Source of the DNA: Naegleria gruberi
Taxonomy: Eukaryota
Direction: 5' to 3' (one strand)
DNA: 64,000 nt
Assembly: GCA_000004985.1 (NCBI GenBank)
Contig: GG738884.1
How positions within the stretch are numbered: position 1 is the first letter of the stretch; each line of letters starts with the position of its first letter. Both the position numbers and the translations under genes were made by a program. Below are positions 26,381 to 64,000 of the stretch, one piece after another. Below the pieces are notes generated by a model. It made no database searches. It worked only from the letters and a program-made list of their open reading frames with translations, and was not told the DNA's origin.

Positions 26381-26494
26381 AGCACATTCATAATGTTTGT
26401 AGTTCATTTATATTCACGAAAAGTTTTGTTGCTTTAGCTGCATTACTGCCCAAGTTATAAAATTTTATTAGAGTTCGTTCCAATCTTTTAAAAT

Positions 26495-31396: not shown

Positions 31397-34300
31397 TTAT
31401 TTATCTTCACGTCCTGGTGAATAGGCAGGAGATGATGGACTATAGCTTGGACTAGTTGGTGAATAGCTAGGACTGGTTGGAGAATAAGCAGGTGAAGATG
31501 GACTATAACCACCACCAGGATTGTAACTTGGACTGCTTGGTGAATAGGCAGGAGAAGATGGTGAATAGTTTGGACTGGATGGTGAATAAGCTGGTGATGA
31601 TGGTGAATAATTTGGACTGCTTGGTGAATAGCTTGGACTAGTTGGTGAGTAAGCTGGAGAAGATGGACTATAACCAGCACCAGGACTTGTAGCACGTGGA
31701 CTAGTTGGAGAGTAAGCTGGTGATGATGGTGAATAGTTTGGACTTGTTGGAGAATAAGCTGGTGAAGTAGGCGAGTAAGCAGGAGATGTTGGTGAATAAT
31801 TTGGTGAAGTTGGTGAGTAAGCTGGTGATGTAGGACTGTAATTTGGACTTGTTGGTGAATAAGCTGGTGAAGTTGGTGAATAGTTTGGACTACTTGGAGA
31901 ATAAGCAGGTGAGGTTGGACTATAATTACCTGGTGAGGATGGAGAATAGCCACCTTGATGTCCAGGAGAAGTTGGAGAACTAGCAACTGGAGAGAATGCA
32001 GAATTATAAGGTGAAGGACTGAATCCACCTTGGTATTCTGGTGAAGGAGTTCTTCCAAGAGGAGTCATTGCACCTTGAGTCCATGGACTTGAAGCACCAC
32101 CATGATATGGGGTAGCAACACCACCATGATAAGGTGTAGCCAAACCACTTGTATGATAAGGTGTTGTTGCACCAAGACTTCCATACATTGATTTAGTTTC
32201 AGTAACAAAGCTTGGTTTAACAGCAACAGCTTGCTTCAATAATTCTTCATCCAAATACAAACCAAAACAACCAGTACCAATTGGAGCCAATTGACCAACC
32301 ATAACGTTAGCAGAAACACCCTTCAAAGTATCAGTATCAGCAAATGTAGCAGCTTCAATAAGAATTTCAACAGTTTCTTCGAAAGAACATCTCATCAATG
32401 GACCAGTGTCACTACGATTAATACCGTGACGAGTAATAGCCATCAAACCACCTCTGTGAGTCATAACATCACACAAAATGGCCAAGTGACGATAGTTAAC
32501 ATAAGAACCGTCAAATTCAATAACCTTTCTCATTTCTCTCATGAGGGCATTTCTACATGCTTCAATACCCAAAACATCAAGAATTTCATTAACATCGTTA
32601 GATGTTGTAATAGTATGATCAACATAAGGGTGAGATAAGACAGCCAACAAGTTACATCCTTCAGTATCCAAAACCCATTGTTTAACAGTAGCAACACCAG
32701 AACTGCTGAAAACCTTCTTGTCATTTTCTTCTCTCAAAAAGACCTTCTTGAGATCCTTATAACCCTTAAGGGCCAATTCGTTCAACATGTTTGATTCGAG
32801 TCTTCTCAAAAATTCAACAGTACTATTTTCAATGTCTTCTTCTTCAAGCTTTCTGAGAACTTCATCACTTGGATCCTTTGCAACTTGAGCATCCTTTTCC
32901 TTTTCTTTATCATCCTTGTGAATACGAACAACGAGAATAAGTTTGTCAGCGTTATCGTCAGAGTAGAAACAAGTAATGTCGTTTTGGAATTCTTCTTGAA
33001 TCTTCTTAGCAACTTGAGCCATAGTCAATGTGTCACTCATCATCATCTTGTCAAGTTCAAATCTGAGAGACCATGGATTGAGAGTAGTTGAATCCAAAAC
33101 TGCTGTATCCTTGAGTTCTTCCAACAATTCTTCTATGAATTCTCTATCTTCTTCAATAACAGAGTTTGCTGGCTCTGGATCGTAAACAATTGAAGTAGCA
33201 GCAGTAACATGTCCAAGAGTAGTATATTCCAAATCTTCCTTAACCATCTTGGCCTTTTCAAAGTCACCAATATATTCATTATTCAAATAAATAGTCAAAC
33301 CTGGAGTCTTAATATTCTTGGCAACGTTCAACAATTCCTTCAAACGAGGAACACCCAAAGTAACGTTCTTTGAAGACACACCGGCAAAGTGGAAAGTATT
33401 CAAAGTCATTTGAGTAGCAGGTTCACCAATAGATTGGGCAGCAACAGAACCGACCATTTCACCTGGTTGAGCCAAACAATTGTGGAATCTCATTCTAATT
33501 TCACCAACCAAAAAGTCAAAGGCTTCTTGGGTAAGACACAATTCTTTAAGAACAACCTTTGAAGAGAAGGTTGATCTCAAGAACATACTGAAAAGTAAAG
33601 TTGCATTAGTTTGAGCTTCAGTTGACAATTCATCAGTACCCTTGATAACAACCAAGTCGTCACACAACTTCTTAATCTTTTCAATAACATAAATAGGATT
33701 CATGTCTGATGGCTTACCAATACTTGGATGGATACCATATTCTTTTTGAGCATTCTTAATAATACGTTTCAAGTTGACAGGCATGACAATCTTATTTTCA
33801 GCATTAGGGAAGATTTCAGTACGTAAAATGTGACGATCTTCCATCAAAGTCTTGTATTCTTCACGGACCTTTGAGAGATAGGTTGCAGGATCCTTCAAAA
33901 TTTCATCATAAACCTTAGTAGAAATGAAAGACTCCTTAAGAATACCACCTGATGGCATTGAAACACTAGATTCAGTTGGGTTTGTGAAAGAAGGAGAACT
34001 ACCAAGAGAATTGTACCAATACTTGTCTTGGAATTTAGCATCACTCAAATTCATAATATCAATTGATTGAGATTCAACCTTGTGGGCATCCATACCATCT
34101 TCACCATACAAGAATTGGACAACATTACCTTGAGCATCACGGACAGTACCATCGTACTTGACCATGATATCTTCCATAGCCTTTATCAATCTTCTTTGGA
34201 TATAACCAGTTTCAGATGTCTTGACGGCAGTATCGATCAAACCTTCACGACCACCCATAGTGTGGAAGAAGAATTCTTGAGGAGTTAAACCTCTGAGGTA

Positions 34301-36897
34301 ACTGTTAGCAACGAAACCACGACTTTCAGGACCATGGTCATCTTGGGCAAAGTGAGGTAAAGTTCTATTACGGAAACCATAAGGAATACGTTTACCTTCG
34401 ACGTTTTGCTGACCGACACAAGCAATAATTTGTGAAATGTTAATGTAAGAACCCTTAGAACCGGCTGTCACCATGGACTTGATGTTATTGTCATCCTTCA
34501 ATGACTTCTTAGCCTTGTTACCAGCATCTTCTCTGGCCTTGTTAAGAACCTTGTTAACTTGATTTTCGAAAGATTGTTGAATAGTTCTACCAGCTTCAGC
34601 TCTCAATTTACCTTCTTGAGCATCCTTGACAATAAGTTTGACGTCCTTTTCGGCTTTTCTAATAGTTTCTTCGATTTGTTCCATAGTAGCTTTATCGGCA
34701 ATAGTGTCACCAATACCAATACTGAAACCACGGTTAATAAGCCAATGGTTAATAACTCTTTGACATTGGCCCAAGAATTTCTTTCCTTCATTAACACCCT
34801 TTTCATTGACAATAATGTGAATCAATGAACCGTGAGAAGAACCTAGAGATTTCTTGTCCAAAACACCTGAAACTAATTCACCTCTGTCAATTAAAACCTT
34901 TGTATCAAATTCAGGTATGTCGTGATCCAAGTGATCTTTCTTATCGGTCAAATCTTCGTGGGTTGATGATGTATTTTCAAGATTGACTTTTGGAAGAAGG
35001 AATGTGAAAAGTTGTTTACCAGTCCACAATGGTTTTGGTTTCAAAATAGCTGGAACAGGTAATTTACCATCAAAATCAATCAAGTGCATTAAGCAATTCA
35101 TCATTAAATCTTTAGCAATAAAGACATCACGACGTGTAAGTTTAGAAGCAGCCAATAAAGTATCTTGGACAAGGGCAATAACTGGTCTGTTACTTTGAGG
35201 AGTAATAATATTCCTAGGGACCATCATTAATTCTAACAATTCGGCTTTTGTTTGAAGAGATTGTGGAACGTGCAAATTCATTTCGTCACCGTCAAAGTCA
35301 GCATTGTATGGGGTAGTGACTGACAAATTCATTCTGAATGTACTGTAAGGCATGACCTTAATTCTGTGACCCATCATAGACATTTTGTGGAGAGAAGGTT
35401 GTCTGTTGAAAAGAATAACATCACCATCTTGTAAGTGACGTTCAACTTTGTAACCATATTCCAATTGAATTTGATCGTTAGCTTTTCCTGAAGCAAATCT
35501 CAAATCGATACGTGTACCATCTTCACGAATAACATACTTGGCACCAGGATAAGTTAAAGGACCATTTGTAACTAATTCATTCAATCTTTCAAAATTGAAA
35601 GGTGTAACAATTTCAGGTACTGTCATATTTGAAGCAACAGTACGAGGAACACCAACTTGATCAATATCAATATTTGGATCGGCAGTAATGACAGTTCTTG
35701 CAGAAAAATCAACACGTTTACCCATCAAGTTACCTCTGACACGTCCTTCCTTACCCTTCAATCTTTGTCTGATTGACTTTAAAGGTCTTCCACTTTTAGT
35801 TGTAGCTGTTGGAACACCTGGATATTCATTATTCACATAGGTAGCACAGTGATATTGTAACATTCTAACCATTTCTTCCATTTGATGAAGTGGTGTACCT
35901 GACTTTTCATTCTTTTGAATGGCAGCATTAGCCTTGATAATATCTGCAAGTTTGTGTGTCAAGTCATCTTCAGAACGATCAGCTGAACCGTGGTGAACAC
36001 TTGGACGAACCTGTGGTGGAGGAATAGGTAAACATGTAAGAATCATCCATTCTGGACGAGCATTATCCTTATCAAAACCTAACAATTCCAAATCCTCAGC
36101 AGGAATTCTCTTAAAGATTTGAAGAGCACGTTCTGCTGTCAATTCTTGTTTTGTTAATTCTTGTTTAGCTTCGGCGCTAGTATCCTTCTTATATTCTGCA
36201 AAAATCTTTAATCCATCTCTGGAAATCTTAGGTTGGAGACCACCACAACCATTTCTTGGTTGGAAAGTTGGGTCAATATTAGCTTCTTGATTTTGTTCAT
36301 TTTCCTTGTTTCCTGTTTCTATTATACATTTGTCTTTTCTACACAGATCGATCATTTCTTTGAATCTTTTACGTCTGTTCACGAATTTTGATGCCTTCTT
36401 AAATTGTAAGCTACTCTTATCCGCTAAAAGTTTACCACAATGAATACACACACTTTGTAGCACCTTCACTACTGTATTAATAAAGAGAACATTAAACACT
36501 GGATGTATTCTAACGTGGCCAAAGTGACCAGGACATTCTGTAGCGTTACCTCCACAACTATTATTGTTAATTAGTTATTATTATTAGTGATGTTGTTGTT
36601 GTAATAGTTTGTTATCATTGTTGATGAGAGAAATTATGAAGAACAGGATTTTTGTATTAAAGATTAGAGGCTTGTTAAATTTCCTCCAAATACTTACGTC
36701 AGACAAGAAAGATGGTGATCAATGGTACCCATACGAAGATCCATCAAACCACTTTCCTTTGGTTTTCCCTTTTCTTGTGTTTCAGCGTGAAGCACTTCAC
36801 AGACAGACATCTTTTCAATAACTTCAGGATTCAAGATACCGAATTGAATTCTATCAACTCTGGCCAATTCGATTGGCGAGAACGAGAAGAGAGACAT
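31397..36897 (-). CDS. RPB1: DNA-directed RNA polymerase II largest subunit RPB1. Two exons, 36698..36897 and 31397..36557; intron ~140 nt with GTAAGT...AATAG. C-terminal domain of ~24 heptads.
   Basis: Exon 1 MSLFSFSPIELARVDRIQFGILNPEVIEKMSVCEV...GLMDLRMGTIDHHLSCL joins exon 2 T-CGGNATECPGHFGHVRIHPVFNVLF... Universal RPB1 motifs follow (NADFDGDEMNLHVPQS and others). CTD [28 protein letters not shown]... ends at 31397. Confidence 0.95.
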
Positions 36898-43121: not shown

Positions 43122-44555
43122 TTATTTTGCCTTTCTAATTCTCTGATCGTATAATTCACTCTCAACGAATCTCAAAAACGAATCCTTAATTGCATCTCCT
43201 TCCATGCTAACTTTCACATCATCGAACAATTCAGGAATTGCTCCTTCCTTTTCAAAGGTTGACAAGACTCTCTTTTTCATGGCTGACGAAATGTTAATTT
43301 CCAACATGGAATCCGAATTCAAATATGTATCAATTATATATTGAGCAAGTTGTCTTCTCTTTTTCAGAGTTTTTAATTTCTGATAGGCAGTTGCATGTTC
43401 CCAAAACAGTAAACTTTCAATGGCATAAATTTTGGCAGCAAATAGTTTGAAAACTTTTCGATATTGTGGATTGATTAATGATTCTTCGAGTGAAATGGTA
43501 CACGAGAGGTCAATTTGAGCTGATGTACAACTAAATGATCGTTTGTCTTTCATTTTCATTACTTCTTTTGGGAGAGAAGCAAGTTTTCGAGCCATTGGAT
43601 AATTCTGCAAAAGTTTTTTCATATTTTTTCTTTCCACAAGGTTGACCTGTGAGGTTTCTACAAATTCTGGAACAATTTCTTCCTTATCAATTGATTCTTC
43701 ATCATTTGTTGAAGAATCGTCTGATATACTCAATAAATCGAATAGATTATCACTTCCTTTTCCTTCGACATCAAGTAATAATTCGAGAAAATCTGGAATT
43801 TTCGAAGCTGAATGAGTTACAAATTGATTAACTATTCTGCCATGTGCCACAATGAAAGAACCAGCCAATTGATCTCTATCTGCCTTCTTTGAGGCATCAG
43901 GTGTCAATTTATAACCTTCTGTCAATGACAATTTAAAAGCATCCAAAGTTGACGTGAAAGTTACCATCTTTGTGGCTGAAGGCACAACTCCAAATTGCTT
44001 ATAATAATAAGTACCTTCTGGATCTTCGACTCTTAGAAATTGTTTCATCAGTTTACTCCTTGCACTCTTTTCAAAAGTTACTGACACTGTCTCACTTGTC
44101 AAAGCTTGATTATTGACAGTTATTTCTTTATCTTCCTTCTTTTCCAACTTGATCAATGGCTTAGGCATTCCCTTCTCTGAAAAGAATTCATCAGCTTCTT
44201 CCTTACTTTCTTGATGAACAAAAACGGGCACACAATTCAACTTGATTAAATTTGACAAACAGCTGACAATCTGAACAACACTTTTTTGACAGAAAACACA
44301 ACCAAAATAGCGAAGGAATATGAGAAGGACAATATGCTTTCTACTCAGCTCTTCAACTGTTACTCCAATATTAGTTTTCATTTCGGATAGAAGGTGGTGA
44401 GGTAATCCTTCAATACCAGTTAATTGTATTTGTGATTGAATATCATCGGGATGATAATCTGTTGCGTTATTATCGTTAGGTTCTATGATGATTGCATTGT
44501 CATCATTTTGGGATGTTTCTTTTTGGTTTAGGTTAGTTTCTTCTTGTCCTAACAT
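43122..44555 (-). CDS. protein with N-terminal AhpC-TSA_2-like (C-x-x-C redoxin-like) region and C-terminal RGS domain, 477 aa
   Basis: N-terminal VLLIFLRYFGCVFCQKSVVQI resembles the PF13911/PRXL2-type F.RhFGC.fCr motif. C-terminal PQYRKVFKLFAAKIYAIESLLFWEHATAYQKL is an RGS box. ATG verified. Confidence 0.55.
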   Translation of the reverse strand: MLGQEETNLNQKETSQNDDNAIIIEPNDNNATDYHPDDIQSQIQLTGIEGLPHHLLSEMKTNIGVTVEELSRKHIVLLIFLRYFGCVFCQKSVVQIVSCLSNLIKLNCVPVFVHQESKEEADEFFSEKGMPKPLIKLEKKEDKEITVNNQALTSETVSVTFEKSARSKLMKQFLRVEDPEGTYYYKQFGVVPSATKMVTFTSTLDAFKLSLTEGYKLTPDASKKADRDQLAGSFIVAHGRIVNQFVTHSASKIPDFLELLLDVEGKGSDNLFDLLSISDDSSTNDEESIDKEEIVPEFVETSQVNLVERKNMKKLLQNYPMARKLASLPKEVMKMKDKRSFSCTSAQIDLSCTISLEESLINPQYRKVFKLFAAKIYAIESLLFWEHATAYQKLKTLKKRRQLAQYIIDTYLNSDSMLEINISSAMKKRVLSTFEKEGAIPELFDDVKVSMEGDAIKDSFLRFVESELYDQRIRKAK

Positions 44556-48837: not shown

Positions 48838-48911
48838 TTAATAATAATAATAATGGAAAATATCAAGCAGCCGATTCCGATGATGAACATGAAGAAGATT
48901 TGCAGAGTTTC

Positions 48912-51900: not shown

Positions 51901-53342
51901 TTATTGTTCCCAATAATTTCGTGGATAAGATTATTCAACAACATTTGGAAATTTATCAAGCTTCTAACATGCCAGCTCTCGAGAATTTCCTTCTTTGCTT
52001 GGAATATAATGATCATTTGAGTACGGATGAGTATGCCAATGTAGAATTTTGCAAACAATTAATTGAAAAGTGTATTAGACTGAGAATGTTCAAAGCCATG
52101 GTTATTATTTACAATAAGGGATTGGACGACTATGTTACTCCGCTTAAAGAATTATTGACCATTGTTTTTGATCCAAATAATAATTCGCAAGGAGACAGGC
52201 CTGCATGTATTGAGTTGGTTTTCGAATATTTGGAAAAGCTATTCATTCAAGGAACTTCCATTACGAATAATCGTATTTCTGCTGGACTTCTCTATGACAT
52301 CAAACTCCAAGTTTTGAATACCATCTTTAAAGCCAATGAGAATATTAGAGACCAATTCTCTAGCTCTGCAATGCCATTCAAGTCATCAGCGCTCTCTAAG
52401 AACTTTTCCTACAAGAAGTATTACATGCTCTCTCGGCTGCTCATCTTATCTGCCAAGAGATTCTTTGCTTGGTTAGAAAAGGTCAACAATGATAGTTCTT
52501 CATCTAGTTTATGGTACTCTACTGAGGAAAAGGAGGTTTTAGCTCATCCACTATTCAAGCCAATCACCAAACAAGAGTTAACGAATTGTTTGATTTATAT
52601 TTTCAGCTACTTGTCTGGAATTGAAAATCCTTTCTCTCCGTGGGAAATGAAAACAAAGAAATTTACCATAGAGGAGGAACAATCACCACAAGCACATTGG
52701 GCTCCAAATCTAGAAGATACTGTCTACTTTTCATTATTCTTAGCTGAACAATTGTCCAAGTCTGGAAAACAAGCTATTGATAAGAATTCAATCTTTGTCT
52801 CTGTGGATACTCTTCATAGAATTTTTTCCACGTTATGTTATGAAGGAAACTTGTTTGATGATGATATTGCCACCACACAATTGGAACTGGTTGAAATTTT
52901 AACCAATGCTCATCATATTATTGACAGAGACATTTCAAAGGAGCTAATTAACATTGAAGAGCTGATAACATCATGTAGAAATTCCAGATTTCACAAGGTC
53001 CTCATATATCTCTACTCTTTGAAAGGAGATTACGAAAAGTTATTGGATGCCTATTTGGCAGATAAGGAGTTACGTGGTGGAGTTTTTACATTCATCAACA
53101 ATCTCACCAAAGTAGAATCGAACTATACAAGTAAGGAAAATAGCTCACTCTTCAATCTTTCAGAGAAGAATCTTCTCAATAAGGAGCAAATCTATTCTAG
53201 AATCAAAATAGCCACCATCAACCATCTCTCACAGCTCATTGAATGTGACAGTGATGCCACAGCTCACTTGATTATTATGCATTTGGAAATACAAGCGATT
53301 CAATGCATGAATTATGAAACGAAAGGGTCTCACATTGGATAG
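48912..53342 (+). CDS. N-terminal and middle part (~1476 aa) of a VPS8-like CORVET/HOPS-type tethering subunit, with an acidic/S-rich N-terminal extension, beta-propeller and alpha-solenoid. Probably continuous with the next ORF.
   Basis: The ORF-track start at 48900 is TTG; the first ATG is at 48912. WD-like propeller blades (ILAIGTSNGTTVIFS...; VTCMDITSTGNYVVCGYEYGDIAFWSIQNGGEL; VLVSSQGAVKLITL) precede long helical repeats. The ORF ends at TAG 53340-53342, 29 nt inside the start of the next ORF. Confidence 0.45.
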   Translation: MLESSTEPNMIIGSARVEADDDDHHQEPYKQYLSSILDEISDESSNDDESGVDEQNQQKRNGAAALVNKQATSKKRKITVKTILRDDGPTQMVTTGASGHKQQEDNDDNYYSDEFMEEENEAIFMSNPYASLMPSSSNSTPTTTLENNEKQRKPNSNTANTGGQQSLYFSPSNILLDMKLEDSERFEILKQASVLEQTKYQLQKLFIPYDPSNKRASLNNQQLSNNHHVTHHHHHHGRKHQDLVTVLTVPSEEEYEKKKILLRTLRVKHTDKVIDSILNSPHSSAVSSSSSDNEEEDYRGNEIANIVKHARNNKFDSDDDNLSTSTTSEMGSDYIHNLINNGDIEDDDSLASDDYDPEALQQGSISRQNSSQQLVKNTEEARALITAMRKKNIKDLKEFNSIDNWKDYYGGVVAHNLSMIKLDMIKSINEYLELHRQEIGICKVIKVSSTILAIGTSNGTTVIFSNSSSKVAHLKLTKQGKGTPTKNPQPIVNQYNSVTCMDITSTGNYVVCGYEYGDIAFWSIQNGGELIKRINGKGEENVNSNSSEFMTPVDNIQFVKNNPFKVLVSSQGAVKLITLKEKLIKLGGNSYVYDSLRVTDDNFDRVVDVKILAEGEAYHASNDYLVVAMATSMGVFVMALEPFVKILCFLSKPEEVSPTTLPYLSWRKVLAPIQLATSHETTLNQILRLNKTKPPLLAIAWGNILNIFQLEVEPQPKGSVPNDSVNSEMFRVSCMEFKNDLIGALWCGEQVMLLLDREHQLLVVDPFATKNVEERKITFEIPTKATQEKVISTHHLTYHSRFDVKSNDGKFTLHPVPSFHSTLCTRASSVDGVAYLLCDNDMNINNQVVITVKVLSWKERIDQLLDMGSWNHALKMALNFYQGRGIAVIGLPTDSSLRKQLAGDVIGDILQGYVDYYTSQVNTPGDQDEMSDNGIDEYYTELAKTCIRYSIEIEKSDKIFTTFYEIFKGKNKERLFISIIQEYIIKGLLISSESEIVIVPNNFVDKIIQQHLEIYQASNMPALENFLLCLEYNDHLSTDEYANVEFCKQLIEKCIRLRMFKAMVIIYNKGLDDYVTPLKELLTIVFDPNNNSQGDRPACIELVFEYLEKLFIQGTSITNNRISAGLLYDIKLQVLNTIFKANENIRDQFSSSAMPFKSSALSKNFSYKKYYMLSRLLILSAKRFFAWLEKVNNDSSSSSLWYSTEEKEVLAHPLFKPITKQELTNCLIYIFSYLSGIENPFSPWEMKTKKFTIEEEQSPQAHWAPNLEDTVYFSLFLAEQLSKSGKQAIDKNSIFVSVDTLHRIFSTLCYEGNLFDDDIATTQLELVEILTNAHHIIDRDISKELINIEELITSCRNSRFHKVLIYLYSLKGDYEKLLDAYLADKELRGGVFTFINNLTKVESNYTSKENSSLFNLSEKNLLNKEQIYSRIKIATINHLSQLIECDSDATAHLIIMHLEIQAIQCMNYETKGSHIG

Positions 53343-55719
53343 AAATACTCACCTCAAATACTTCCAATTGTTGTGTGAATNTGAACCAAAATCTGTGTAT
53401 ACCTACGTATCTTCACAGAGGGATTATCCTCTCGATGAATGTCTCAAATTCTGTAGACAGCACAATATTTTGGATGCAACCTCTTATCTGTTAGAAAGAG
53501 GTGGAGATGTTGTTGGAGCTGTTAAACTTTACTTGGAAAAGGTTGATGAAAAGTTGAGAGAATTGTGTGAAAAATGTGTCTCTGAAGAAGATCGTTTCAC
53601 AAAGAGCATTAATTTAGCTGAACTACAACAAGATTATTACAATTCCACACAACAACAACCTAATGAAAATCATGATGAAGGATTGAATGGTCCTCCAATA
53701 ACTGATCTCTTTTACCTTCTCAAGGAATTTGATTCCAAGTACAGAAATTATTTACAAATCAAGTGGGAAGAATTACAACAACAACGAAAAATCAAACTCT
53801 CCAAAGTAATGGATCCAAATCTTGAAAAGAAACAACAGATTGATGATAAGGATGAATTGAAAGCTTGGGCTCAAAAGATGGTTTCTGTTGTGACAGCTTT
53901 CACAACCTCATCAGCTTCAGAGACTGACGAGTCTACGGTCGTACAAGACATGACAGCCATGATTGTTAGCCCTAATAGCTTATCCAAAGGAAGGAGAAGA
54001 ATTTTAGAAGTCCAATTCTATTCTAGTAGTGTAATGGGTATTCTTCAATCAGAAATTTATGAAAAGTTCAAGCAGCTAATTATTGAAATTGTCAACATGT
54101 GCAAGAGAAATATTGATAACGGTAGATTATCTGATAAGGAAGTTGAAAAATTGTGGTTTAATTTGTTGGACAAACTTGTGGTGCCGCTTCGTGAGTTATT
54201 CGAATCCTACTGTAAATCTTCAACAGATTGTGAACAAAACTTGAAAGGTCAAGCAGAACCTACAACAACATCAAAAAGCTCTGAAAAAGCAAAAAAGAGG
54301 AAGAAACATGAATCGAGTGATGATGACTCTGATGATGGAGAAAGGGATGCTCTGAACGATTCAATGACCTTTATGGATGGTCTCAGTGATGATGAGGATA
54401 TTACAATTGAGGAAAATATTAATGATCACAAGGAAATGATTGCATCATCAATTAGAGAAAAGGAAAAACTCCAAGAAAAGGTCAGATATGAATTTGATCC
54501 TGTAGTTACCAAGGAAACCTATGAGAAAATTAATAGAATTGAGAAAAGATTGGTTGCTTTACGAAATTTCCTTGCCGATTTGGAATATGAAAAAAAGAGA
54601 GAGGACGAGAGAATGATGAGAGAAGCAACTGATCCACTAGCTCCAAAGAATTTAAAGAATAGACCTAGCAACTTGTTCCTTCAAGTGTGTTTGCATCATT
54701 TACTCAAATTGGTATTCACTGAAATGTCCAACTCTTCATCAAGTATTCAGGATGAGAATGATGATTCACAATCAACGAGTATTGAGGAAAAACATCAAAG
54801 AGAAAAGAAATTTTCAGTATTCCACTTACTTCAACAAGCTGCCAAGAATTACAAGAAGGACTTGTATGGTTACTTCAAAGAGCCTCTATTAGACATGTAT
54901 GACAAGTGTGGATTTGAGCTCATGCTTTATCACTCAATTAATAGATTATTGGAAAGTGACGGCTTCTGGCTTCACAGAAGAAGATTTAGAAGAACCAGAA
55001 GGGGTATAAGGCCTAAATCAAACTATTGTAGATTGTGTGATTGTTCGATTTATGATTTAGATGAGGATAACACAAAGGGTGGAAAATTGAAAGTATTCTA
55101 TTGCGGACATGCTTTACATGAACATTGCTTGGATGAAATTAATTGTCTCAATAGATGTCCTATTTGTTCCAAGATGGACACTGATTCAGCCATTTTGGAG
55201 AGCGACACAAAGAAATCATCTCATGAGTTGGAAAAGAAAAAGTCAATGACTGGTTCTTCTCTTCTACATAATGCCACTCTTGAGGTAAATCCTGACAATG
55301 GAGTTTTTGTCAGTGTGTACAAGAAACAGAGATGGCGTATGGTTGACTCGGCCATGCAACAATCTGTCAATGAAAAGGAACGTTTACTGGAAGAGCTCAG
55401 AAGTAGTAATAGTTTGACATCAAGATTCCAAATTCCACTCCACAGCTCTCTCAAAAAATCATTGAGATATGGAAATTATCAACCATCCACAGGTATTGGA
55501 TATTCAAAAGCTAAAAAGCAACAAGAACGAAATATAGTTCAAGAATTGGTTGTAGATAATGATGAAGCCAATCAAGAACAACCAGCCACTGCCACCAGGA
55601 AGAGTAGAAAGACAACTCTAGCAATTCAACCACCAACAGTCAGAAAGACCCTCAAATTGGACTTTATTCCAAAAGGTAAAACACAAAAGGAAGAACCTGT
55701 TGAGGAAGAAGAAGAATAA
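53314..55719 (+). CDS. C-terminal part (801 aa) of the same VPS8-like gene: alpha-solenoid/CHCR-like repeats and a C-terminal RING-H2 zinc finger
   Basis: HNILDATSYLLERGGDVVGAVKLYLEKVDEKLRELCEK is clathrin-heavy-chain-repeat-like, as in Vps8/Vps41. C-terminal CRLCDCSIYDL...VFYCGHALHEHCLDEINCLNRCPICSK is a C3H2C3 RING-H2. Overlaps the previous ORF in another frame; an ambiguous base n lies at 53381. Confidence 0.5.
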   Translation: MKRKGLTLDRNTHLKYFQLLCEXEPKSVYTYVSSQRDYPLDECLKFCRQHNILDATSYLLERGGDVVGAVKLYLEKVDEKLRELCEKCVSEEDRFTKSINLAELQQDYYNSTQQQPNENHDEGLNGPPITDLFYLLKEFDSKYRNYLQIKWEELQQQRKIKLSKVMDPNLEKKQQIDDKDELKAWAQKMVSVVTAFTTSSASETDESTVVQDMTAMIVSPNSLSKGRRRILEVQFYSSSVMGILQSEIYEKFKQLIIEIVNMCKRNIDNGRLSDKEVEKLWFNLLDKLVVPLRELFESYCKSSTDCEQNLKGQAEPTTTSKSSEKAKKRKKHESSDDDSDDGERDALNDSMTFMDGLSDDEDITIEENINDHKEMIASSIREKEKLQEKVRYEFDPVVTKETYEKINRIEKRLVALRNFLADLEYEKKREDERMMREATDPLAPKNLKNRPSNLFLQVCLHHLLKLVFTEMSNSSSSIQDENDDSQSTSIEEKHQREKKFSVFHLLQQAAKNYKKDLYGYFKEPLLDMYDKCGFELMLYHSINRLLESDGFWLHRRRFRRTRRGIRPKSNYCRLCDCSIYDLDEDNTKGGKLKVFYCGHALHEHCLDEINCLNRCPICSKMDTDSAILESDTKKSSHELEKKKSMTGSSLLHNATLEVNPDNGVFVSVYKKQRWRMVDSAMQQSVNEKERLLEELRSSNSLTSRFQIPLHSSLKKSLRYGNYQPSTGIGYSKAKKQQERNIVQELVVDNDEANQEQPATATRKSRKTTLAIQPPTVRKTLKLDFIPKGKTQKEEPVEEEEE

Positions 55720-55728
55720 ATTATTTAT

Positions 55729-57486
55729 TTACAATCCCATTGTTCCTCGAATTACTTCTAAACTTTCCACACGAGTCATGTGTCGTTTATCTTCCTCATC
55801 AGATGTGATAGAAGAAATGGCCGTGGTTGGTTCCTTATCTTCCTCATCAATCAAGGTTAGTTCTGCACTACTGCTAGCACTTGCCAAAGCTGTTGGAATA
55901 GTTGCAGGTTTGGAAATTTCCTTAGCTACAAAGCTGTCAACAGTAATAGTTTGTTTCATAAAATTCAAAATATCAGTAACTAATGGTTCATAGATATTAC
56001 CCATAGCATGTGAAAGTCCAATAATTGTAAAGTGATTAGTTCCTTCCTCGTACCGTTTGTATTTTACAACTGGGGATTTTGATTCATCTTCCCACAATAT
56101 ATGTCCATTCGAATATTCATCATAAATTTGTTTCAACTTTGTAGCAAAGCTCTCTCCCTGATCCTCCAATCCAAGATCACTTGCAGCATTTGCGATATAG
56201 AATGAAGGAACTGATTTCAAATTATGTACATGTCTGGAGAGGAAAATTCTTTCTCTTTCCACATAATAAATTGGAGAGACATCATCATATCGATCAGCAA
56301 CTCCAAAAGCTGGCTCAACAATGAATTTTCTAGTAAGGAAAATTCTATCAGCAACATTCTGAACATCAAACACGGCACCAACACAAATTACTGCCTTAAT
56401 TTTCTCTAATATTTGCCTGTCGAGCTGTTCTCTCTCATCAAAATCTTTGGATTCAGTTGTGTATGGATCCTTTAAATTCTTCAAATTCATTCCATATCTC
56501 AATAAACAGAGTGAAATCAAGTGAGCTCCAGCAGAGTGACCGAAAATTGCAATATTATTAGAATCACCTCCATACTTTTCAATATTATCTGTGCAAAATT
56601 TAAATGAAGACAAGACATCTTCGCATTGATCTGGAACAGTCTTGGCACCAGGAGCCAATCTATAACCAATCACAACAACCACACAAGGATACTCTTCACA
56701 AATTCTCATGGCCATTCGACTGTATGCATCAAACCATCTGTGAGTTCTATCACCTCTTCTCCAACTTCCACCATGACAAAAGAAGAGTACTGGCAGTTTG
56801 GATTGATCTTGTGAAGATCTCTTCACTCTAGTTCTGAAAATATTCAATTTTTGCTTTGGATCATCAGAATCAGCAATATACGGAACATCTCTACATGATT
56901 CCACTTCAAACTGTCCATTTCCAACTGTCACTGATATTTTTGTTGGTTCAGTTGATGATGATGACTTGTCAATACTTGCAGAGCTCTTTCTTCTACATGT
57001 CTTTTTCTCAGGTGTTGAAGTTGTTGTTGTATTATTACCACTTGTATTATTTGTTGCAAGTTGTTGTCCATTATTATTAGTAGTATTCATCGCTGATTTT
57101 TGTAAATAAATTTCCAAAGCTTGTTTTGTCGTTCTACACAACTTCCACTTGATATTTTCCTTCTTTTCCAAAATATGTTGTTCAAATACAGCTGTAGTTT
57201 CATTCATTGATGATGTCGGTGTTGGCACCTCATTCTCATGATCAAACGATTCCGAACCTAACATTATTTTCATCTCATCATCACCATGTCCTTCAAATTC
57301 TTCATCATAATCCACATGATCATGAAGTATGTCCACCGTGGATCCATCCTTCTCCTCCACCCCCAAATAGGTTTTCTTGAAAAAGGTCCACATAGCCCCA
57401 AGTTGATTCATTTTGTCTCCCTCTCTTGCAGAAACGTGAAGAGTTTGTTTTTGTATTTTTTTTGTTTGTCTATTTTTAAGTTCCAT
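55729..57486 (-). CDS. alpha/beta-hydrolase fold-3 esterase (prenylcysteine-methylesterase / kynurenine-formamidase-like) with a T/N-rich N-terminal extension, ~585 aa
   Basis: The ORF-track start at 57492 is TTG; the ATG is at 57486. VLFFCHGGSWRRGDRTHRW...VVVIGYRLAPGAKTVPDQCEDVLSSFKFCTDNIEKYGGDSNNIAIFGHSAGAHLISLCLL carries the HGG oxyanion motif and the GHSAG nucleophile elbow of the Abhydrolase_3 family. Confidence 0.75.
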   Translation of the reverse strand: MELKNRQTKKIQKQTLHVSAREGDKMNQLGAMWTFFKKTYLGVEEKDGSTVDILHDHVDYDEEFEGHGDDEMKIMLGSESFDHENEVPTPTSSMNETTAVFEQHILEKKENIKWKLCRTTKQALEIYLQKSAMNTTNNNGQQLATNNTSGNNTTTTSTPEKKTCRRKSSASIDKSSSSTEPTKISVTVGNGQFEVESCRDVPYIADSDDPKQKLNIFRTRVKRSSQDQSKLPVLFFCHGGSWRRGDRTHRWFDAYSRMAMRICEEYPCVVVVIGYRLAPGAKTVPDQCEDVLSSFKFCTDNIEKYGGDSNNIAIFGHSAGAHLISLCLLRYGMNLKNLKDPYTTESKDFDEREQLDRQILEKIKAVICVGAVFDVQNVADRIFLTRKFIVEPAFGVADRYDDVSPIYYVERERIFLSRHVHNLKSVPSFYIANAASDLGLEDQGESFATKLKQIYDEYSNGHILWEDESKSPVVKYKRYEEGTNHFTIIGLSHAMGNIYEPLVTDILNFMKQTITVDSFVAKEISKPATIPTALASASSSAELTLIDEEDKEPTTAISSITSDEEDKRHMTRVESLEVIRGTMGL

Positions 57487-57920
57487 TTTCAAAAAAGCCG
57501 AATTTTGTGCGTCCTTGTTGAATCAGCAAAGTTCTCGGAGGAAATTAAAATGGTGCGAGTGAGGAATAAACAGAGTTGACTCTTGGATGAATTGTAAGCA
57601 GTAAGATTGTTTAATATATTGAAGAAATATTACAAAATATTTAAAAATAAGGAAATTTTCCATCAAGATGTGGAAATTTTAAACGGGTAACCTTTGATAT
57701 TTGGCGGGAAATCAAAAAACTGTTGGTTCTAATCAAATTTGTTTCCTTTTAAAAATCTGTGAAAAATTCAAAAAAATGTCCAAACGAATGAGCAACACTG
57801 AATTACAGGTTGACAATAAGAAAATCAAAATGACTACTAATATCCTTCTCCTTCCGAAAGAATTATTGTGTTCCATCATGTCGTTTAATGATGGTTGCCA
57901 AACCATCAAGATGAGAAGAA

Positions 57921-57938
57921 TTTGGGTTTGGGTTTGGG
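57921..57938 (+). repeat. interstitial telomere-like repeat (TTTGGG)x3 at the boundary between the last gene and the subtelomeric block
   Basis: tttgggtttgggtttggg, identical in unit and orientation to the terminal array. Immediately followed by a small hairpin gggtaaatccattaccc. Confidence 0.7.
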
Positions 57939-58685
57939 AGACTGTAGGGTAAATCCATTACCCAAATTTAGTTGTCCAATTATTGAAAATTGACTTTTAC
58001 CAATATCATACTAGACGTTGTGTACTATACAATAAAAAAGAAATGGAATTTTAATTCACTGTACTTATTCAGAAAATCAACTCTGAAAACTAGTGTTTAA
58101 CTTTTATTTTTCATTTCCTAGTAACAAGTATGACTTGGAACACAATCATATCAAATATGATAGATACACATATGAGTTGACTATAATCACAAAAATATTT
58201 GAAAAATATAAAGTCTAGAAAAAGTTATAAGGCACTGCCTAAAACATAAAGATTTTTACCCTGTTGGGTCTGAAATTTCAAAGTTGAGTTGGAATGTAAA
58301 TTTGAATATATTGTAGATATATAGATGAATAGATGATATTTTCAATTAATCATGTTGAATCAGTATATATAAAAAGTTACATCTTGTCTAAAAATTAACT
58401 TTTCAACATTTATTGTACTGTAATATGAGTGTTATTAGAATCATCACCAATCTCATATATATGATGTATAATGATGATATTCACATTGTAGAAGTGTTGG
58501 AAGTATAACATATAATATCCTTAGTAAACTGTACTCATTCTACCTTAATTGACCAAGATATTGAGCCATACTATGGAAACACTATAACATTCAATCAAAC
58601 TCATAGATATTGTATTAAATATTAATTATAATCATATATAATTGAAATAATCATTATTGGATCCATATTCAGACTGTAGGAAGTC

Positions 58686-59042
58686 NNNNNNNNNNNNNNN
58701 NNNNNNNNNNNNNNNNNNNNNNNNNNNNNNNNNNNNNNNNNNNNNNNNNNNNNNNNNNNNNNNNNNNNNNNNNNNNNNNNNNNNNNNNNNNNNNNNNNNN
58801 NNNNNNNNNNNNNNNNNNNNNNNNNNNNNNNNNNNNNNNNNNNNNNNNNNNNNNNNNNNNNNNNNNNNNNNNNNNNNNNNNNNNNNNNNNNNNNNNNNNN
58901 NNNNNNNNNNNNNNNNNNNNNNNNNNNNNNNNNNNNNNNNNNNNNNNNNNNNNNNNNNNNNNNNNNNNNNNNNNNNNNNNNNNNNNNNNNNNNNNNNNNN
59001 NNNNNNNNNNNNNNNNNNNNNNNNNNNNNNNNNNNNNNNNNN
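58686..59042. other. assembly gap (357 N)
   Basis: Run of n characters. Confidence 0.99.
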
Positions 59043-61008
59043 CATGTTATATATGTAAATTGAAGCATTTTGATATCAGTTTTGATATTATAATATGATT
59101 TATTAGATATTATATATAGCTACTCTTAGTTTTTCAAAATTGACTTTGAGATTCCCTAATTGACCATATATATATGACCAATTGATGAAACTAATATCAA
59201 TCGACTAGATTTTCAATTGTGAACACAATGATATCAATAGTTATATGATTCATGATAGTTTAAAATTGAGTTGGTCAACTAAGGATAGGTCATTAAGGTT
59301 TGAATGAATTGATATGAAAGTCAATACCAATTATTGATATACCATTATTAATTGATCTATATATGATATTATAATTGAAAGATTTTAAAATTAATATGAT
59401 TTCATTATCTTGACATTCATTATTCTCATGATTACACTCCTGACATGTTGAATGATTTCAAATTGTCATGAAACTGATACAGTAGTGTTTATTCACCATT
59501 AGTAAGGTACTGTATCAATGTCATAATGATCTGTATAGTAGATGTTATTGTCACATCCCTGTAGGTATCAAGTTGATCAGCCATGTACCATATATGATAT
59601 GGATGAATGTCAAAATGATATAGATGTATTTAATTATCATGTATATATGTATTGGAAGTGAATTGAAGTGGTATAGATTTCTATCTTCAATGTTAGAATA
59701 GGTCAGTTGACAAGTTGAATAGTTAGTTCCATGAGATGATTCCACATTATATGAAATTGATATATATTGTTATTAACATGATTTATAAGGTGATATATTG
59801 ATTTGAAATGAATTTGAAATGTTTTCATTGATATTATAATTGTCTAATCTATTATATGAAATTAACTTATATAAGTCATTATAATGATGTAATATTATGT
59901 TATATTATGATTATATATTCAATTTGGAGTATATTGATATATAATCTATTGATTTATAATGAGTATTTATTGAGATAATGAATTAAGATGAATAAAAGTC
60001 AAAATGTTGGGTCTGACCTTAGTCGTGGGTTTGTTGTTATGGGTCCCCGCAAGGGGTATGAAGTCAATTGATTCAAGTAGAAGGTCTATTAATTGAAATA
60101 AACCAATGTGCAATCACCAAGAAACGAACCTGTGACCTCATGGTGTTGAATCCATGATTAAACCGCACCAATATGAAGGGAAGCAGAAATCATCCCTTAG
60201 TTACCCGTTAAGTAACTAAGGGAATCATCCTGCTTCTTCATATTATTAGTTTCTAGCACTTGTCTTCAATCCACTATGGATATCTCTTCATTTACTACTT
60301 GTAATCTGAGTTTCTGCATTCTGAACTAGGAATTATACTTGATTTGATGTCTGACACCCTTCAGCCATCTATGGGTTTGGAAACGTGTTGTTTTGATTTG
60401 TTTCTTCTGTGGCTCCATGGTCTTTATGATCTGATATAGGGTTATTAAGCGCCGTTTGGGTATTTTGTTGGTTTTTTTAGTAAAGTTTTAAAAAAAGTAT
60501 ATAGTTCTTATCTAGTTATCGAGTTGTGGTGTAAATGTGTTGTTTTCAAGCTATTCGAAAGTAGTAACGATTTCGATATTCCGTTACTTTGCGTCACTTT
60601 GCGGACGGACTTATATTCAATCAATTTGATTGTCATTCATATTGATGCGTAGAATTTTTGAGAGTATTTTTGAATGTACGTTATTTTTATCTACGCATGA
60701 ATGAAAAGTACAACAATGATCAAGAGGAATTGAGTCATGAGTATGATACTTTCTCAGATTGTTCTACGCATCAAGAGTATTCGATTCAGGATTCTATTCA
60801 TATATGATATTTGTAATACATATATTGAATTGGATGAGATGGAGTGCCATCTTGTTGTTAAAAGTTGAGTCGACATTAAGGTATTCAGTAAATTGATACC
60901 ACATGACTAATTAGAGTGATTATATGTCATTATATCAATTTCTTTGAAAACAGACTTGCTTCTGGACCTTTCAGATTTCTAGCCACATATGACAGATCAC
61001 CAAGTACT

Positions 61009-61375
61009 NNNNNNNNNNNNNNNNNNNNNNNNNNNNNNNNNNNNNNNNNNNNNNNNNNNNNNNNNNNNNNNNNNNNNNNNNNNNNNNNNNNNNNNNNNNN
61101 NNNNNNNNNNNNNNNNNNNNNNNNNNNNNNNNNNNNNNNNNNNNNNNNNNNNNNNNNNNNNNNNNNNNNNNNNNNNNNNNNNNNNNNNNNNNNNNNNNNN
61201 NNNNNNNNNNNNNNNNNNNNNNNNNNNNNNNNNNNNNNNNNNNNNNNNNNNNNNNNNNNNNNNNNNNNNNNNNNNNNNNNNNNNNNNNNNNNNNNNNNNN
61301 NNNNNNNNNNNNNNNNNNNNNNNNNNNNNNNNNNNNNNNNNNNNNNNNNNNNNNNNNNNNNNNNNNNNNNNNNNN
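61009..61375. other. assembly gap (367 N)
   Basis: Run of n characters. Confidence 0.99.
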
Positions 61376-62592
61376 ATTCAATAATAAACCGTTCTATACA
61401 TCATGTGTGTCATACAGAATGAGTTTCAATATTTAATATTGTGAACTGACTCTGTTGGATACCATCTCTATAAATATAACAAGATGAAAAGTGTCAACAT
61501 TCAATTACACATATGGAGTGTCACCATTGTATCATCTAGACAGATAGCATTTCAAGTTTTAGTGGAATTGACAGTCTAGATATTGAGATGTGTATTCTAA
61601 GGTTTAAGAAGTGTCACCTTCACTGATTAGTGACATGACTATAACAATTGAACATATGATTCTTGTATCAATAATTCATTGTTCAATGATTGTGATATGA
61701 TGGTAAAATTTAATTTTGGAAATATGATTCTTCCCTATTGACAACCTTAGATGTTCCTTTGTTGACTTGAAGTTATTGAGCCATCAACATGAAACTTTCT
61801 CAGATTGTTGTCCTCATCAAGGGAAGTGTATTCATGTTTGACACTTGTATGATATTTTGTAAATTGACTGAGATGGTATACAATCTATATGTTGAAATGT
61901 GACAATTTGACAGATTGTTATTATTATCATACTGAATTCAGTTCTAACAGTATGTAATTGATACCATATGTATAATAGAGTGATTAAAGGTATATGGTAA
62001 AGTTACAGGATGATTGGATGTACTTTCACTGATATGGAGTGTTCACTAGGATATATAAAGTGTTGAGATTGAACATTTACTGATTAATTTTATGAAAGTA
62101 GGGGTTGGTTATCGTTTCGTCCTCATTGGATCTTCATTATTACTGAAATACATAATCAATGATATACATCATTAAATAGGTTACAATCTCAGCTATCCAG
62201 TGGGCTATAGATTATGTATAGTTTCTTATCTAATTATTGAGATAATCAGCAATTCCTCCCTCAATATATTGCGATTTTACTATTCCTAGGGAAAGGTAAA
62301 AGAATGATAAGAAATTGATCAATAAAAAATATATGTCATACTAGAGATGATTTGCTATCGATTGGTGTTTCAACTTTGGATTTCACTAAGTAATTATTGA
62401 ATTATCACCGATTAAATATTTAGTTATTCTTGTTGGAAATCCTTGCTGGTAATTAAAGAGAGTTGATTCGTTCTGTCTTGGTTGTATGGAGGTGAGAGTT
62501 GGAGGTGAGAGTGCGGACGCACTCTAATTGTCGGTTGGAAAAGTAACATACAAAAAAAATGTTGTGATGTTTCCTCTCTCTTCCTCATTCAA

Positions 62593-62640
62593 TCATCTCA
62601 TCATATCATCATCATATCATCATCATATCATCATATCATC
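62593..62640 (+). repeat. microsatellite (CATCATAT / CATCAT mixed units)
   Basis: catcatatcatcatcatatcatcatcatatcatcatatcatc. Confidence 0.8.
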
Positions 62641-62854
62641 AGGAGTTGTTTCATAATAATTTTAAAAATATATATTGATTGGAATTATTTGGAAGATGAT
62701 GTTTCGGAATTGGAATAATATTTATTTGGAAGTTATTATAATGGTGGAGGTGTGGTGCCTTTGGCACTCACTTCCACCAAGTTGCAAAATTAATTGGAAA
62801 TTAGGATAGCTTTAATAATGTAATTGGATTGGATTGGTAGATGTATCATCTCTG

Positions 62855-62931
62855 ANNNNNNNNNNNNNNNNNNNNNNNNNNNNNNNNNNNNNNNNNNNNN
62901 NNNNNNNNNNNNNNNNNNNNNNNNNNNNNNN
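62855..62931. other. assembly gap (77 N)
   Basis: Run of n characters. Confidence 0.99.
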
Positions 62932-63646
62932 AAATCTGTAATATGAATGTGAAAATAAACTTGATATTCTATCTCTACACATCGAATGGAGCATTTTCAT
63001 GTATAATTTGTTGATTGAAGTGATATATTTGATAGACTTGGTCTGACTTGTCTTTCCTTTCAGTCAACCAACTTTGGAAAATCAACATTTACATTCCCAT
63101 GGTACCATTTCTAATTCTTATGATATGAAATTGAATTCTATATCACTATAGATCATATAAATCATTTTGGTAAAGTTTCAATAGGTGGTCCTTTTTCAAG
63201 ATTTCCATCCTTATCATACAAGTTGACCATGTGTGGTTGAGGGAAGAAATCTTTAAATATGAAAGTTAAAATAAATTTGATATTCGATGTTTACTCATCA
63301 AATGGAACATTTTCATATCAGGTTTCAATATGTTTTGATGAGAAACTCAAAAGTTATTGTTGACCTCTTTTACCTCACAACTTCCCTTTTCACTTGATAC
63401 TTTTATATGTACAGACTTGAAATATTGAAATTTCTTATGAGAGTGATTATAAATGTTGTTATTGATGATATAGACTATATAATCTCATTAAAGGATTTTG
63501 AAATTATTATCCTTCCTATGGTTTCATTTTACAAATTTTTAATCTTACATTATTTACAATGTTAATATTTTATAAATTGAAAAACTAAATATAATACATT
63601 GTTCTATTCATCATTTACAATCGAATGATATAATAATCAATAAATT

Positions 63647-64000
63647 GGGCTAGGGTTTGAACTTTGAAAGGTTTGGGTTTGGGTTTGGGTTTGGGTTTGG
63701 GTTTGGGTTTGGGTTTGGGTTTGGGTTTGGGTTTGGGTTTGGGTTTGGGTTTGGGTTTGGGTTTGGGTTTGGGTTTGGGTTTGGGTTTGGGTTTGGGTTT
63801 GGGTTTGGGTTTGGGTTTGGGTTTGGGTTTGGGTTTGGGTTTGGGTTTGGGTTTGGGTTTGGGTTTGGGTTTGGGTTTGGGTTTGGGTTTGGGTTTGGGT
63901 TTTGGTTTGGGTTTGGGTTTGGGCTTGGGTTTGGGTTTGGGTTTGGGTTTGGGTTTGGGTTTGGGTTTGGGTTTGGGTTTGGGTTTGGGTTTGGGTTTGG
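63647..64000 (+). repeat. terminal telomere array (GGGTTT)n, ~57 units reaching the window end, G-rich strand 5'->3' toward the end (right chromosome end)
   Basis: Perfect gggttt hexamer tandem array from ~63671 to 64000, with two variant units (ggtttt near 63900, gggctt near 63923). Degenerate lead-in gggctagggtttgaactttgaaaggtttggg. Confidence 0.9.

What the first reader, a model, noticed from the sequence alone, without database searches (positions are those of the whole stretch)
63647..64000. Window ends in a (TTTGGG)n telomere, so this is a right chromosome end
About 57 tandem GGGTTT hexamers run to the last base, with the G-rich strand oriented 5'->3' outward as expected for a chromosome terminus. 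TTTGGG is not the common TTAGGG or TTTAGGG unit, which helps place the organism taxonomically. All genes in the window are therefore chromosome-distal; the last gene lies only ~6.5 kb from the telomere.
Basis: seen in the sequence. Interest (0 to 1): 0.6.

Follow-up and report, generated by a model that had tools for sequence, protein, structure and literature searches.

The report
Naegleria gruberi TTTGGG telomere, already described
The window ends in a genuine chromosome-end (telomere) repeat, (TTTGGG)n, of the amoeboflagellate Naegleria gruberi; this unusual repeat unit was already reported for this species in 2013, so the finding is correct but not new.

Summary
Window 63672-64000 is 54 full TTTGGG units plus 5 nt. 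52 units are perfect, and the array runs to the last base with the G-rich strand 5'->3' outward. A 25-nt degenerate lead-in (63647-63671) precedes it. Shuffles expect 0.34 matches; 55 were found.

RPB1 in the window is 100% identical to Naegleria gruberi RPB1 on a 363-kb scaffold, so the organism is N. gruberi. Fulneckova et al. 2013 (PMC3622300) already list TTTGGG as the in-silico candidate telomere of N. gruberi. That makes the finding already known, though it is not experimentally verified in the literature I could search.

New supporting evidence comes from a metagenome scan. 20 of 20 contigs from an independent, Acrasis-related heterolobosean end in outward-pointing pure TTTGGG, each on a different unique flank.

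Caveats:
- Three assembly gaps lie between the last gene (ending at 57492) and the 1.07-kb telomere-bearing contig.
- 329 bp is only a lower bound for telomere length.
- Telomerase involvement is inferred, not shown.

A same-orientation interstitial (TTTGGG)3 sits 5.7 kb inside, at 57921-57938. It may mark an older chromosome end. Interest is low.

The parts
63672..64000 (+). Terminal telomeric array (TTTGGG)n: 54 full units plus TTTGG, 52 of them perfect; G-rich strand 5'->3' toward the end
63647..63671 (+). Degenerate telomere-like junction (TTGGGCTAGGGTTTGAACTTTGAAAGG) between the unique subtelomere and the perfect array
   Evidence: sequence reading
57939..63646 (.). Subtelomeric region: AT-rich (26-31% GC against 34.6% in the gene-bearing part). 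It has no ORF above about 60 aa apart from artefacts spanning N runs. It holds three assembly gaps (58686-59042, 61009-61375, 62856-62931) and small local repeats (60729-60816/61775-61862; 62932-63000/63247-63316)
   Evidence: no Rfam family
57921..57938 (+). Interstitial (TTTGGG)3 in the same orientation as the terminal array, 5.7 kb internal; expected 4e-6 times by base composition
57776..57952 (+). 58-codon ATG ORF that runs into the interstitial repeat and stops just after it. It may be a remnant of a truncated gene, but no Pfam hit or homologue supports this
55729..57492 (-). Last substantial gene before the telomere: alpha/beta-hydrolase (BD-FAE / Abhydrolase_3 / carboxylesterase-like)
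31397..36499 (-). RPB1 (RNA polymerase II largest subunit), used to identify the organism; 100% identical to N. gruberi RPB1

Best explanation
The array is the assembled, centromere-proximal part of a true telomere of a Naegleria gruberi nuclear chromosome.

Shown here:
- A pure TTTGGG minisatellite of at least 329 bp runs to the end of the sequence.
- Its G-strand points outward.
- It is joined through a short degenerate junction to an AT-rich, gene-poor subtelomere.

Inferred from general telomere biology:
- The repeats are added to the 3' end by telomerase, whose RNA would carry a template of roughly 1.5 repeats (a permutation of CCCAAACCC).
- The real end carries a longer array and a single-stranded G-rich 3' overhang.
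- Sequence-specific end-binding proteins cap the end, and this solves the end-replication problem.

The interstitial (TTTGGG)3, 5.7 kb inside and in the same orientation, is best read as the residue of an earlier chromosome end. The present distal 5.7-kb block would have been added onto it later by recombination or end capture.
For: - Array anatomy and significance.
- Organism is N. gruberi: RPB1 100% identical, on a 363,092-bp scaffold.
- Prior report: TTTGGG was identified as the candidate telomeric minisatellite of N. gruberi from position and orientation in the genome assembly (PMC3622300).
- Subtelomere-like flank: GC drops from about 35% to 20-31%, there are no real ORFs, and the region holds assembly gaps and local repeats.
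- Independent organism: in a (TTTGGG)8 scan of metagenome contigs, all 20 contigs of assembly JAESGV01 carry the array at a contig end pointing outward, each on a different unique flank.
- That organism is a heterolobosean. Its Set1 is by far closest to Acrasis kona (E 3e-227; 79% identity over the C-terminal 272 aa). It encodes DYW-type PPR proteins and has AT-rich, standard-code, intron-poor genes.
- Across all 53 terminal arrays, 42 point outward and 11 inward (binomial p = 2e-5).
Against: - No experiment (Bal31 sensitivity, terminal restriction fragments, FISH or a telomerase assay) supports terminal location in Naegleria. The 2013 paper itself says experimental tests are required.
- I could not retrieve other N. 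gruberi scaffolds or the scaffold coordinates, because exact-protein look-ups returned nothing on record. 'Window end = scaffold end' is therefore an inference.
- The telomere sits on a 1,069-bp contig linked to the genes only across three N gaps, so a scaffolding error is possible.
- Telomerase (TERT and its RNA) was not examined, and the literature search found nothing on it for Naegleria.
- Without the JAESGV01 contigs, the outward bias in metagenomes is only 22 to 11 (p = 0.08).
- 67 of the 120 hits are internal arrays, so TTTGGG also occurs as an ordinary microsatellite.
Confidence: 0.9

Rival explanations
1. The array is a real N. gruberi telomere but is mis-scaffolded. The 1,069-bp telomere-bearing contig (62932-64000) would belong to another chromosome end and was joined to this gene block by misleading mate pairs in repetitive subtelomeric DNA.
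For: Three N gaps (357, 367 and 76 nt) separate the last gene from the telomere contig. No sequence overlap or repeat ties the terminal contig to the neighbouring pieces. Subtelomeres are often shared between chromosome ends.
Against: The orientation is the expected one. The unique part of the terminal contig has 25.9% GC, matching the proximal subtelomere piece at 25.8%. GC declines progressively toward the end. A same-orientation interstitial telomere seed lies at 57921, which is typical of a region already close to an end.
Confidence: 0.07
2. The array is an internal TTTGGG microsatellite or a large interstitial telomeric block at which the window or assembly happens to stop, not a physical chromosome end.
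For: 67 of 120 metagenomic (TTTGGG)>=8 arrays are internal. I could not verify the scaffold coordinates. Fulneckova et al. note that many genomes with terminal repeats also carry internal blocks.
Against: The array is 329 bp and nearly pure, whereas the internal metagenomic arrays are 48-133 bp and lie mostly in GC-rich genomes. It ends exactly at the last base in the telomeric orientation. It is preceded by a gene desert. The published survey rated N. gruberi as a convincing terminal pattern.
Confidence: 0.03
3. The array is a true telomere but is maintained without telomerase, by recombination or rolling-circle copying of the repeat (ALT-like).
For: No TERT or telomerase RNA was examined here or found in the searched literature for Naegleria. 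The interstitial seed and the distal block suggest that recombination acts at these ends.
Against: The repeat is a very homogeneous short TxGy unit (52 of 54 perfect). The same pure repeat caps 20 different unique flanks directly in a related organism. This is the signature of templated de novo addition. Recombination-maintained ends usually share long subtelomeric or complex units.
Confidence: 0.08

Closest known systems
Candidate N. gruberi telomere TTTGGG (Fulneckova et al. 2013, Genome Biol Evol, PMC3622300)
   Same: Same species, same assembly, same repeat unit and same criterion (terminal position and orientation on scaffolds). This window is one instance of what that survey reported.
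   Different: Nothing substantive differs. This report adds the anatomy of one end (junction, gaps, interstitial seed) and an independent heterolobosean metagenome assembly with the same terminal repeat.
Paramecium macronuclear and micronuclear telomeres (TTGGGG/TTTGGG mixture)
   Same: TTTGGG hexamers occur at chromosome ends and are made by telomerase.
   Different: In Paramecium, TTTGGG arises by misincorporation or stuttering on a TTGGGG-type template and is interspersed with TTGGGG. Here no unit among 54 is TTGGGG. The genes use the standard genetic code with long ORFs, so the organism is not a ciliate.
Canonical TxAyGz / TxGy telomerase repeats (TTAGGG human-type, TTGGGG Tetrahymena, TTTAGGG plant-type)
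   Same: Short G/T-rich unit, G-strand 3' outward, tandem array at the terminus, degenerate proximal junction, and an AT-rich repeat-bearing subtelomere with interstitial seeds.
   Different: The unit differs from TTAGGG by one base (A to T) and from TTGGGG by one base (G to T). TTAGGG is thought to be ancestral, including for Excavata, so TTTGGG would be a derived heterolobosean state.
Subtelomeric interstitial telomere repeats (yeast X-(TG1-3)-Y' junctions, human subtelomeric (TTAGGG)n islands); comparison from my own knowledge
   Same: A short telomere-repeat tract lies in the same orientation as the terminal array, a few kb internal, at the boundary between gene-bearing DNA and a distal AT-rich block.
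   Different: Only 3 units are present, and I could not show that the distal block is shared with other chromosome ends because no other N. gruberi sequence was available.

Membership tests
Telomerase-type telomeric minisatellite (chromosome-end repeat) | Short G/T-rich unit in a long head-to-tail array | tested here: met
   Period 6, 55.2 copies, 98% matches; 52 of 54 units perfect
Telomerase-type telomeric minisatellite (chromosome-end repeat) | Array lies at the terminus of the assembled molecule | tested here: inconclusive
   The array runs to the last base of the window. I could not retrieve scaffold coordinates. A terminal pattern in this assembly is reported in PMC3622300.
Telomerase-type telomeric minisatellite (chromosome-end repeat) | G-rich strand runs 5'->3' toward the end | tested here: met
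   TTTGGG is on the + strand at the 3' end of the window
Telomerase-type telomeric minisatellite (chromosome-end repeat) | The same repeat caps many different chromosome ends | tested here: inconclusive
   Not testable for N. gruberi itself, because only one end was available. Met in a related heterolobosean: 20 of 20 JAESGV01 contigs with different unique flanks. Stated for N. gruberi in the literature.
Telomerase-type telomeric minisatellite (chromosome-end repeat) | Physical end of the DNA (Bal31 sensitivity, terminal restriction fragment smear, 3' G-overhang) | not testable with these tools
   Requires wet-lab work. None is reported for Naegleria in the searched literature.
Telomerase-type telomeric minisatellite (chromosome-end repeat) | Telomerase (TERT plus an RNA with a complementary template) synthesises the unit | not tested
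   No N. gruberi proteome or genome was accessible beyond this window. The literature searches gave nothing. The only CCCAAA-type run in the window outside the telomere is the interstitial repeat, and the minus-strand RNA around it shows no unusual structure (z = 0.05).
Paramecium-type variable telomere (TTGGGG/TTTGGG mix) | Interspersed TTGGGG and TTTGGG units | tested here: not met
   No TTGGGG unit among the 54. The only variants are one TTTTGG and one CTTGGG.
Paramecium-type variable telomere (TTGGGG/TTTGGG mix) | Ciliate host (TAA/TAG reassigned, nuclear dimorphism) | tested here: not met
   ORFs of up to 1,700 aa read through in the standard code. RPB1 is 100% N. gruberi.

The most novel reading that the evidence does not exclude
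TTTGGG may not be an idiosyncrasy of N. gruberi but the shared, possibly ancestral, telomere motif of a large part of Heterolobosea, covering at least the Naegleria and Acrasis-related lineages. An uncultured Acrasis-related organism caps 20 different chromosome ends with it. The interstitial (TTTGGG)3 at 57921 would then record an old chromosome break in N. gruberi that telomerase healed and that was later extended by a captured 5.7-kb distal block. Neither point appears in the literature I could search.
Probability: 0.5. Interest if true: 0.35.

Novelty: already known. Interest (0 to 1): 0.2.

Why it matters
The finding anchors this scaffold as a chromosome end of N. gruberi and shows the layout of one heterolobosean subtelomere. 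That layout is a roughly 6-kb AT-rich gene desert containing an internal telomere seed, with housekeeping genes such as RPB1 only 27 kb from the end.

The repeat identity was published in 2013, so little is learned about telomere diversity. The modest added value is twofold. An independent heterolobosean lineage shows the same terminal repeat, which hints at a clade-level trait. It also gives a concrete target, the TTTGGG motif, for the experimental telomere and telomerase work that still seems to be missing for Naegleria, including the pathogen N. fowleri.

Tried and rejected
- **Exact-protein look-ups for the N. gruberi scaffold or other assemblies.** I tried the 523-aa ORF, P0001 and the 58-aa ORF. 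None is on record, so I could not verify scaffold coordinates or see other N. gruberi ends.
- **Metagenome scan with the window-specific junction.** It gave 0 hits.
- **Reaching telomeres of relatives through homologues.** The A. kona Set1 contig starts 670 bp upstream of the gene with no repeat, which is an assembly break. Metagenomic contig L122 has no repeats at either end. N. lovaniensis RPB1 lies 22-47 kb from the start of a 1.08-Mb contig, but in the opposite orientation relative to its Kelch neighbour, and the contig end is outside the 10-kb flank. All three are uninformative.
- **'Truncated F-box gene' reading of the small ORF before the interstitial repeat.** Pfam gave nothing relevant, the homology search found no candidates, and local blastp against window ORFs found only an insignificant resemblance (E = 0.84) to the N-terminus of the DUF4116 protein. 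I do not claim this reading.
- **Telomerase RNA template idea.** The interstitial (CCCAAA)3 on the minus strand could in principle be a template. The fold z-score is 0.05, Rfam has no hit, and 18 nt is longer than typical templates. Rejected as unsupported.
- **Ciliate origin (Paramecium).** Rejected because of the standard genetic code and the RPB1 identity.
- **DNA similarity between the window and the 120 metagenomic loci.** blastn found no hits. The accompanying translated comparison (tblastx) returned no output and may simply not have run, because that program is not among the listed installed tools, so it counts as no evidence either way.
- **Literature on Naegleria, Acrasis or Heterolobosea telomeres or telomerase beyond the 2013 survey.** Nothing relevant was found.

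Full report
**Observation.**
The last 1 kb of the window shows unique AT-rich sequence up to about 63646. A 25-nt degenerate telomere-like stretch follows (TTGGGCTAGGGTTTGAACTTTGAAAGG, 63647-63671). From 63672 an uninterrupted array of TTTGGG runs to base 64000.

Tandem Repeats Finder reports 63670-64000, period 6, 55.2 copies, 98% matches and score 648. A script counts 54 full units plus a final TTTGG. Of these, 52 are perfect; the variants are TTTTGG at 63900 and CTTGGG at 63924. The 12-mer TTTGGGTTTGGG with up to 1 mismatch occurs 55 times, against 0.34 expected in dinucleotide shuffles.

The G-rich strand does run 5'->3' toward the end. The opposite window end has no complementary array.

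**Organism.**
The window is 33-38% GC and densely packed with long standard-code ORFs. Pfam identifies RPB1, Vps8, RGS, SH2, Kelch, ZIP, lipase and microbial-type PARG genes.

The RPB1 ORF (31397-36499, minus strand) is 100% identical to the NCBI Naegleria gruberi RNA polymerase II protein, on a 363,092-bp scaffold. It is 84% identical to N. lovaniensis and 73% to Willaertia magna. The window is thus part of the N. gruberi draft assembly. The N runs are scaffolding gaps.

**What is already known.**
Fulneckova et al. 2013 (PMC3622300) searched 143 genome assemblies for terminal minisatellites. [quoted passage not shown] They also caution that experiments are needed to confirm terminal position.

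My searches for later work on Naegleria, Acrasis or heterolobosean telomeres or telomerase found nothing relevant.

TTTGGG units are otherwise documented in Paramecium, but there they are interspersed with TTGGGG through misincorporation or stuttering of telomerase. Here no unit is TTGGGG and the host is not a ciliate.

**Surroundings.**
- The last substantial gene is an alpha/beta-hydrolase (55729-57492, minus strand).
- From there to the array is 6.2 kb. GC is 26-31%, against 34.6% for the gene-bearing part.
- The only long 'ORFs' in this stretch are artefacts that span N runs.
- No Rfam family matches the stretch.
- It contains a few diverged local repeats: 60729-60816 with 61775-61862, and 62932-63000 with 63247-63316.
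- Three gaps (357, 367 and 76 N) interrupt it. The telomere therefore sits on a 1,069-bp contig that is linked to the genes only by scaffolding.
- This is the main technical caveat. The unique part of the terminal contig has the same composition as the proximal subtelomere (25.9% against 25.8% GC), which is consistent with correct placement but does not prove it.

**Interstitial seed.**
A perfect (TTTGGG)3 lies at 57921-57938, in the same orientation as the terminal array. Its expected frequency from base composition is 4e-6 per window. A 58-codon ATG ORF (57776-57952) runs straight into it and terminates just after it.

By eye the ORF's N-terminus resembles an F-box, suggesting a gene truncated at an old healed break. 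Pfam, the 5.8-billion-protein homology search and a local blastp gave no support, so I report that only as an unverified impression.

I also asked whether the minus-strand (CCCAAA)3 could be a telomerase RNA template. The surrounding RNA folds no better than shuffles (z = 0.05). Nothing else supports the idea, and I reject it.

The most economical reading is a subtelomeric interstitial telomere tract that marks a former end. This is analogous to yeast X-Y' junctions or human subtelomeric TTAGGG islands; that comparison is from my own knowledge.

**Independent evidence from elsewhere.**
Exact look-ups of N. gruberi proteins were not on record. A scan with the window-specific junction found nothing.

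I classified them by position and orientation:
- 42 terminal and pointing outward
- 11 terminal and pointing inward
- 67 internal

For the terminal arrays, the outward-versus-inward split has binomial p = 2e-5. Without one dominant assembly it is 22 to 11, p = 0.08.

That dominant assembly, JAESGV01, contributes 20 contigs, and all 20 are terminal and outward. They have 20-39% GC and long standard-code ORFs. Each has a different unique flank directly capped by pure TTTGGG that reaches the contig end.

The JAESGV01 organism is a heterolobosean:
- Its Set1-like protein (L064) has Acrasis kona as by far the best named hit, at E = 3e-227. All other named organisms score 1e-65 or weaker and match only the SET domain.
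- It is 79% identical to the A. kona protein over the C-terminal 272 residues.
- Its contigs encode PPR proteins with DYW deaminase domains. From my own knowledge, that family outside plants is characteristic of Naegleria, Acrasis and a few other protists.

A second heterolobosean lineage, assembled independently from short reads, therefore shows the classic telomere signature with the same unit.

Attempts to see the ends of A. kona, N. lovaniensis and another metagenomic relative were uninformative.

**Mechanism.**
Shown: a nearly pure TxGy minisatellite at the end of the assembled molecule, G-strand outward, with a degenerate proximal junction and a subtelomeric gene desert.

Inferred from established telomere biology:
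- synthesis by telomerase on an RNA template containing a permutation of CCCAAACCC
- a longer array in vivo, since 329 bp is only what the assembly retained
- a 3' G-overhang
- capping by sequence-specific proteins
- G3N3 tracts, which satisfy the G-quadruplex consensus

None of the telomerase components could be examined here.

**Rivals.**
- Mis-scaffolding of a genuine telomere contig: about 0.07.
- An internal microsatellite or interstitial block at an arbitrary cut: about 0.03.
- Telomerase-independent maintenance: about 0.08. This rival is not exclusive of the telomere identity.

**Verdict.**
The feature is already known as an in-silico candidate in the literature, so interest is low (0.2).

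The modest extras are the evidence that TTTGGG may be a clade-level heterolobosean motif and the interstitial seed that suggests an older chromosome end. Both would be simple to test with existing long-read assemblies.

Noticed in passing
window 57921-57938 (with ORF 57776-57952): A perfect interstitial (TTTGGG)3 in the same orientation as the telomere, 5.7 kb internal, at the exact point where a 58-codon ORF ends and the AT-rich distal block begins. It may be an old healed chromosome end. The truncated-gene idea has no homology support.
   Followed up: partly
window 58686-59042, 61009-61375, 62856-62931 (also 1381-1430, 24108-24501, 53381): Runs of N (assembly gaps). Three of them lie between the last gene and the telomere contig, so the gene-to-telomere distance and linkage rest on scaffolding.
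   Followed up: yes
window 48900-53342 and 53314-55719 (+): A Vps8-like gene (beta-propeller, TPR, RING-like C-terminus) is split into two overlapping ORFs in different frames, next to a single N at 53381. It is probably one gene of about 2,280 aa with a base-call ambiguity or a short intron.
   Followed up: no
window 60000-60620, hairpin 60180-60236: A GC-richer island inside the AT-rich subtelomere contains a hairpin with 25-nt arms (80% complementary, 7-nt loop). There is no Rfam match and no ORF; its nature is unknown.
   Followed up: partly
window 60729-60816 / 61775-61862 and 62932-63000 / 63247-63316: Diverged direct repeats (75% and 84% identity; spacing about 1,046 and about 315 bp) suggest small tandem duplications in the subtelomere.
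   Followed up: partly
L042 1-3762 (JAESGV010000876.1): In the Acrasis-related metagenomic heterolobosean, a Ty3/gypsy-type retroelement ORF (RT, RNase H, integrase) abuts the telomere repeat directly. DYW-type PPR genes cluster on the same subtelomeric contig (5671-8631, 8705-11509).
   Followed up: partly
L123 (N. lovaniensis PYSW02000001.1, 22093-47623): The N. lovaniensis RPB1 orthologue also lies within about 22-47 kb of the end of a 1.08-Mb contig and keeps its Kelch and 830-aa RGS-like neighbours. Its orientation relative to the contig end is opposite to that in N. gruberi. This could be a subtelomeric inversion or a coincidence.
   Followed up: no
window 18876-18946, 26309-26381, 41361-41434: Three tRNA genes (Asp-GTC, Gln-TTG, Val-AAC) are interspersed among protein genes in the distal 64 kb.
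   Followed up: no
window 1867-3030, 28466-30994, 43122-44555, 16440-18494: Three RGS-domain genes and an SH2-domain gene lie within 64 kb, which fits the rich signalling repertoire known for Naegleria.
   Followed up: no
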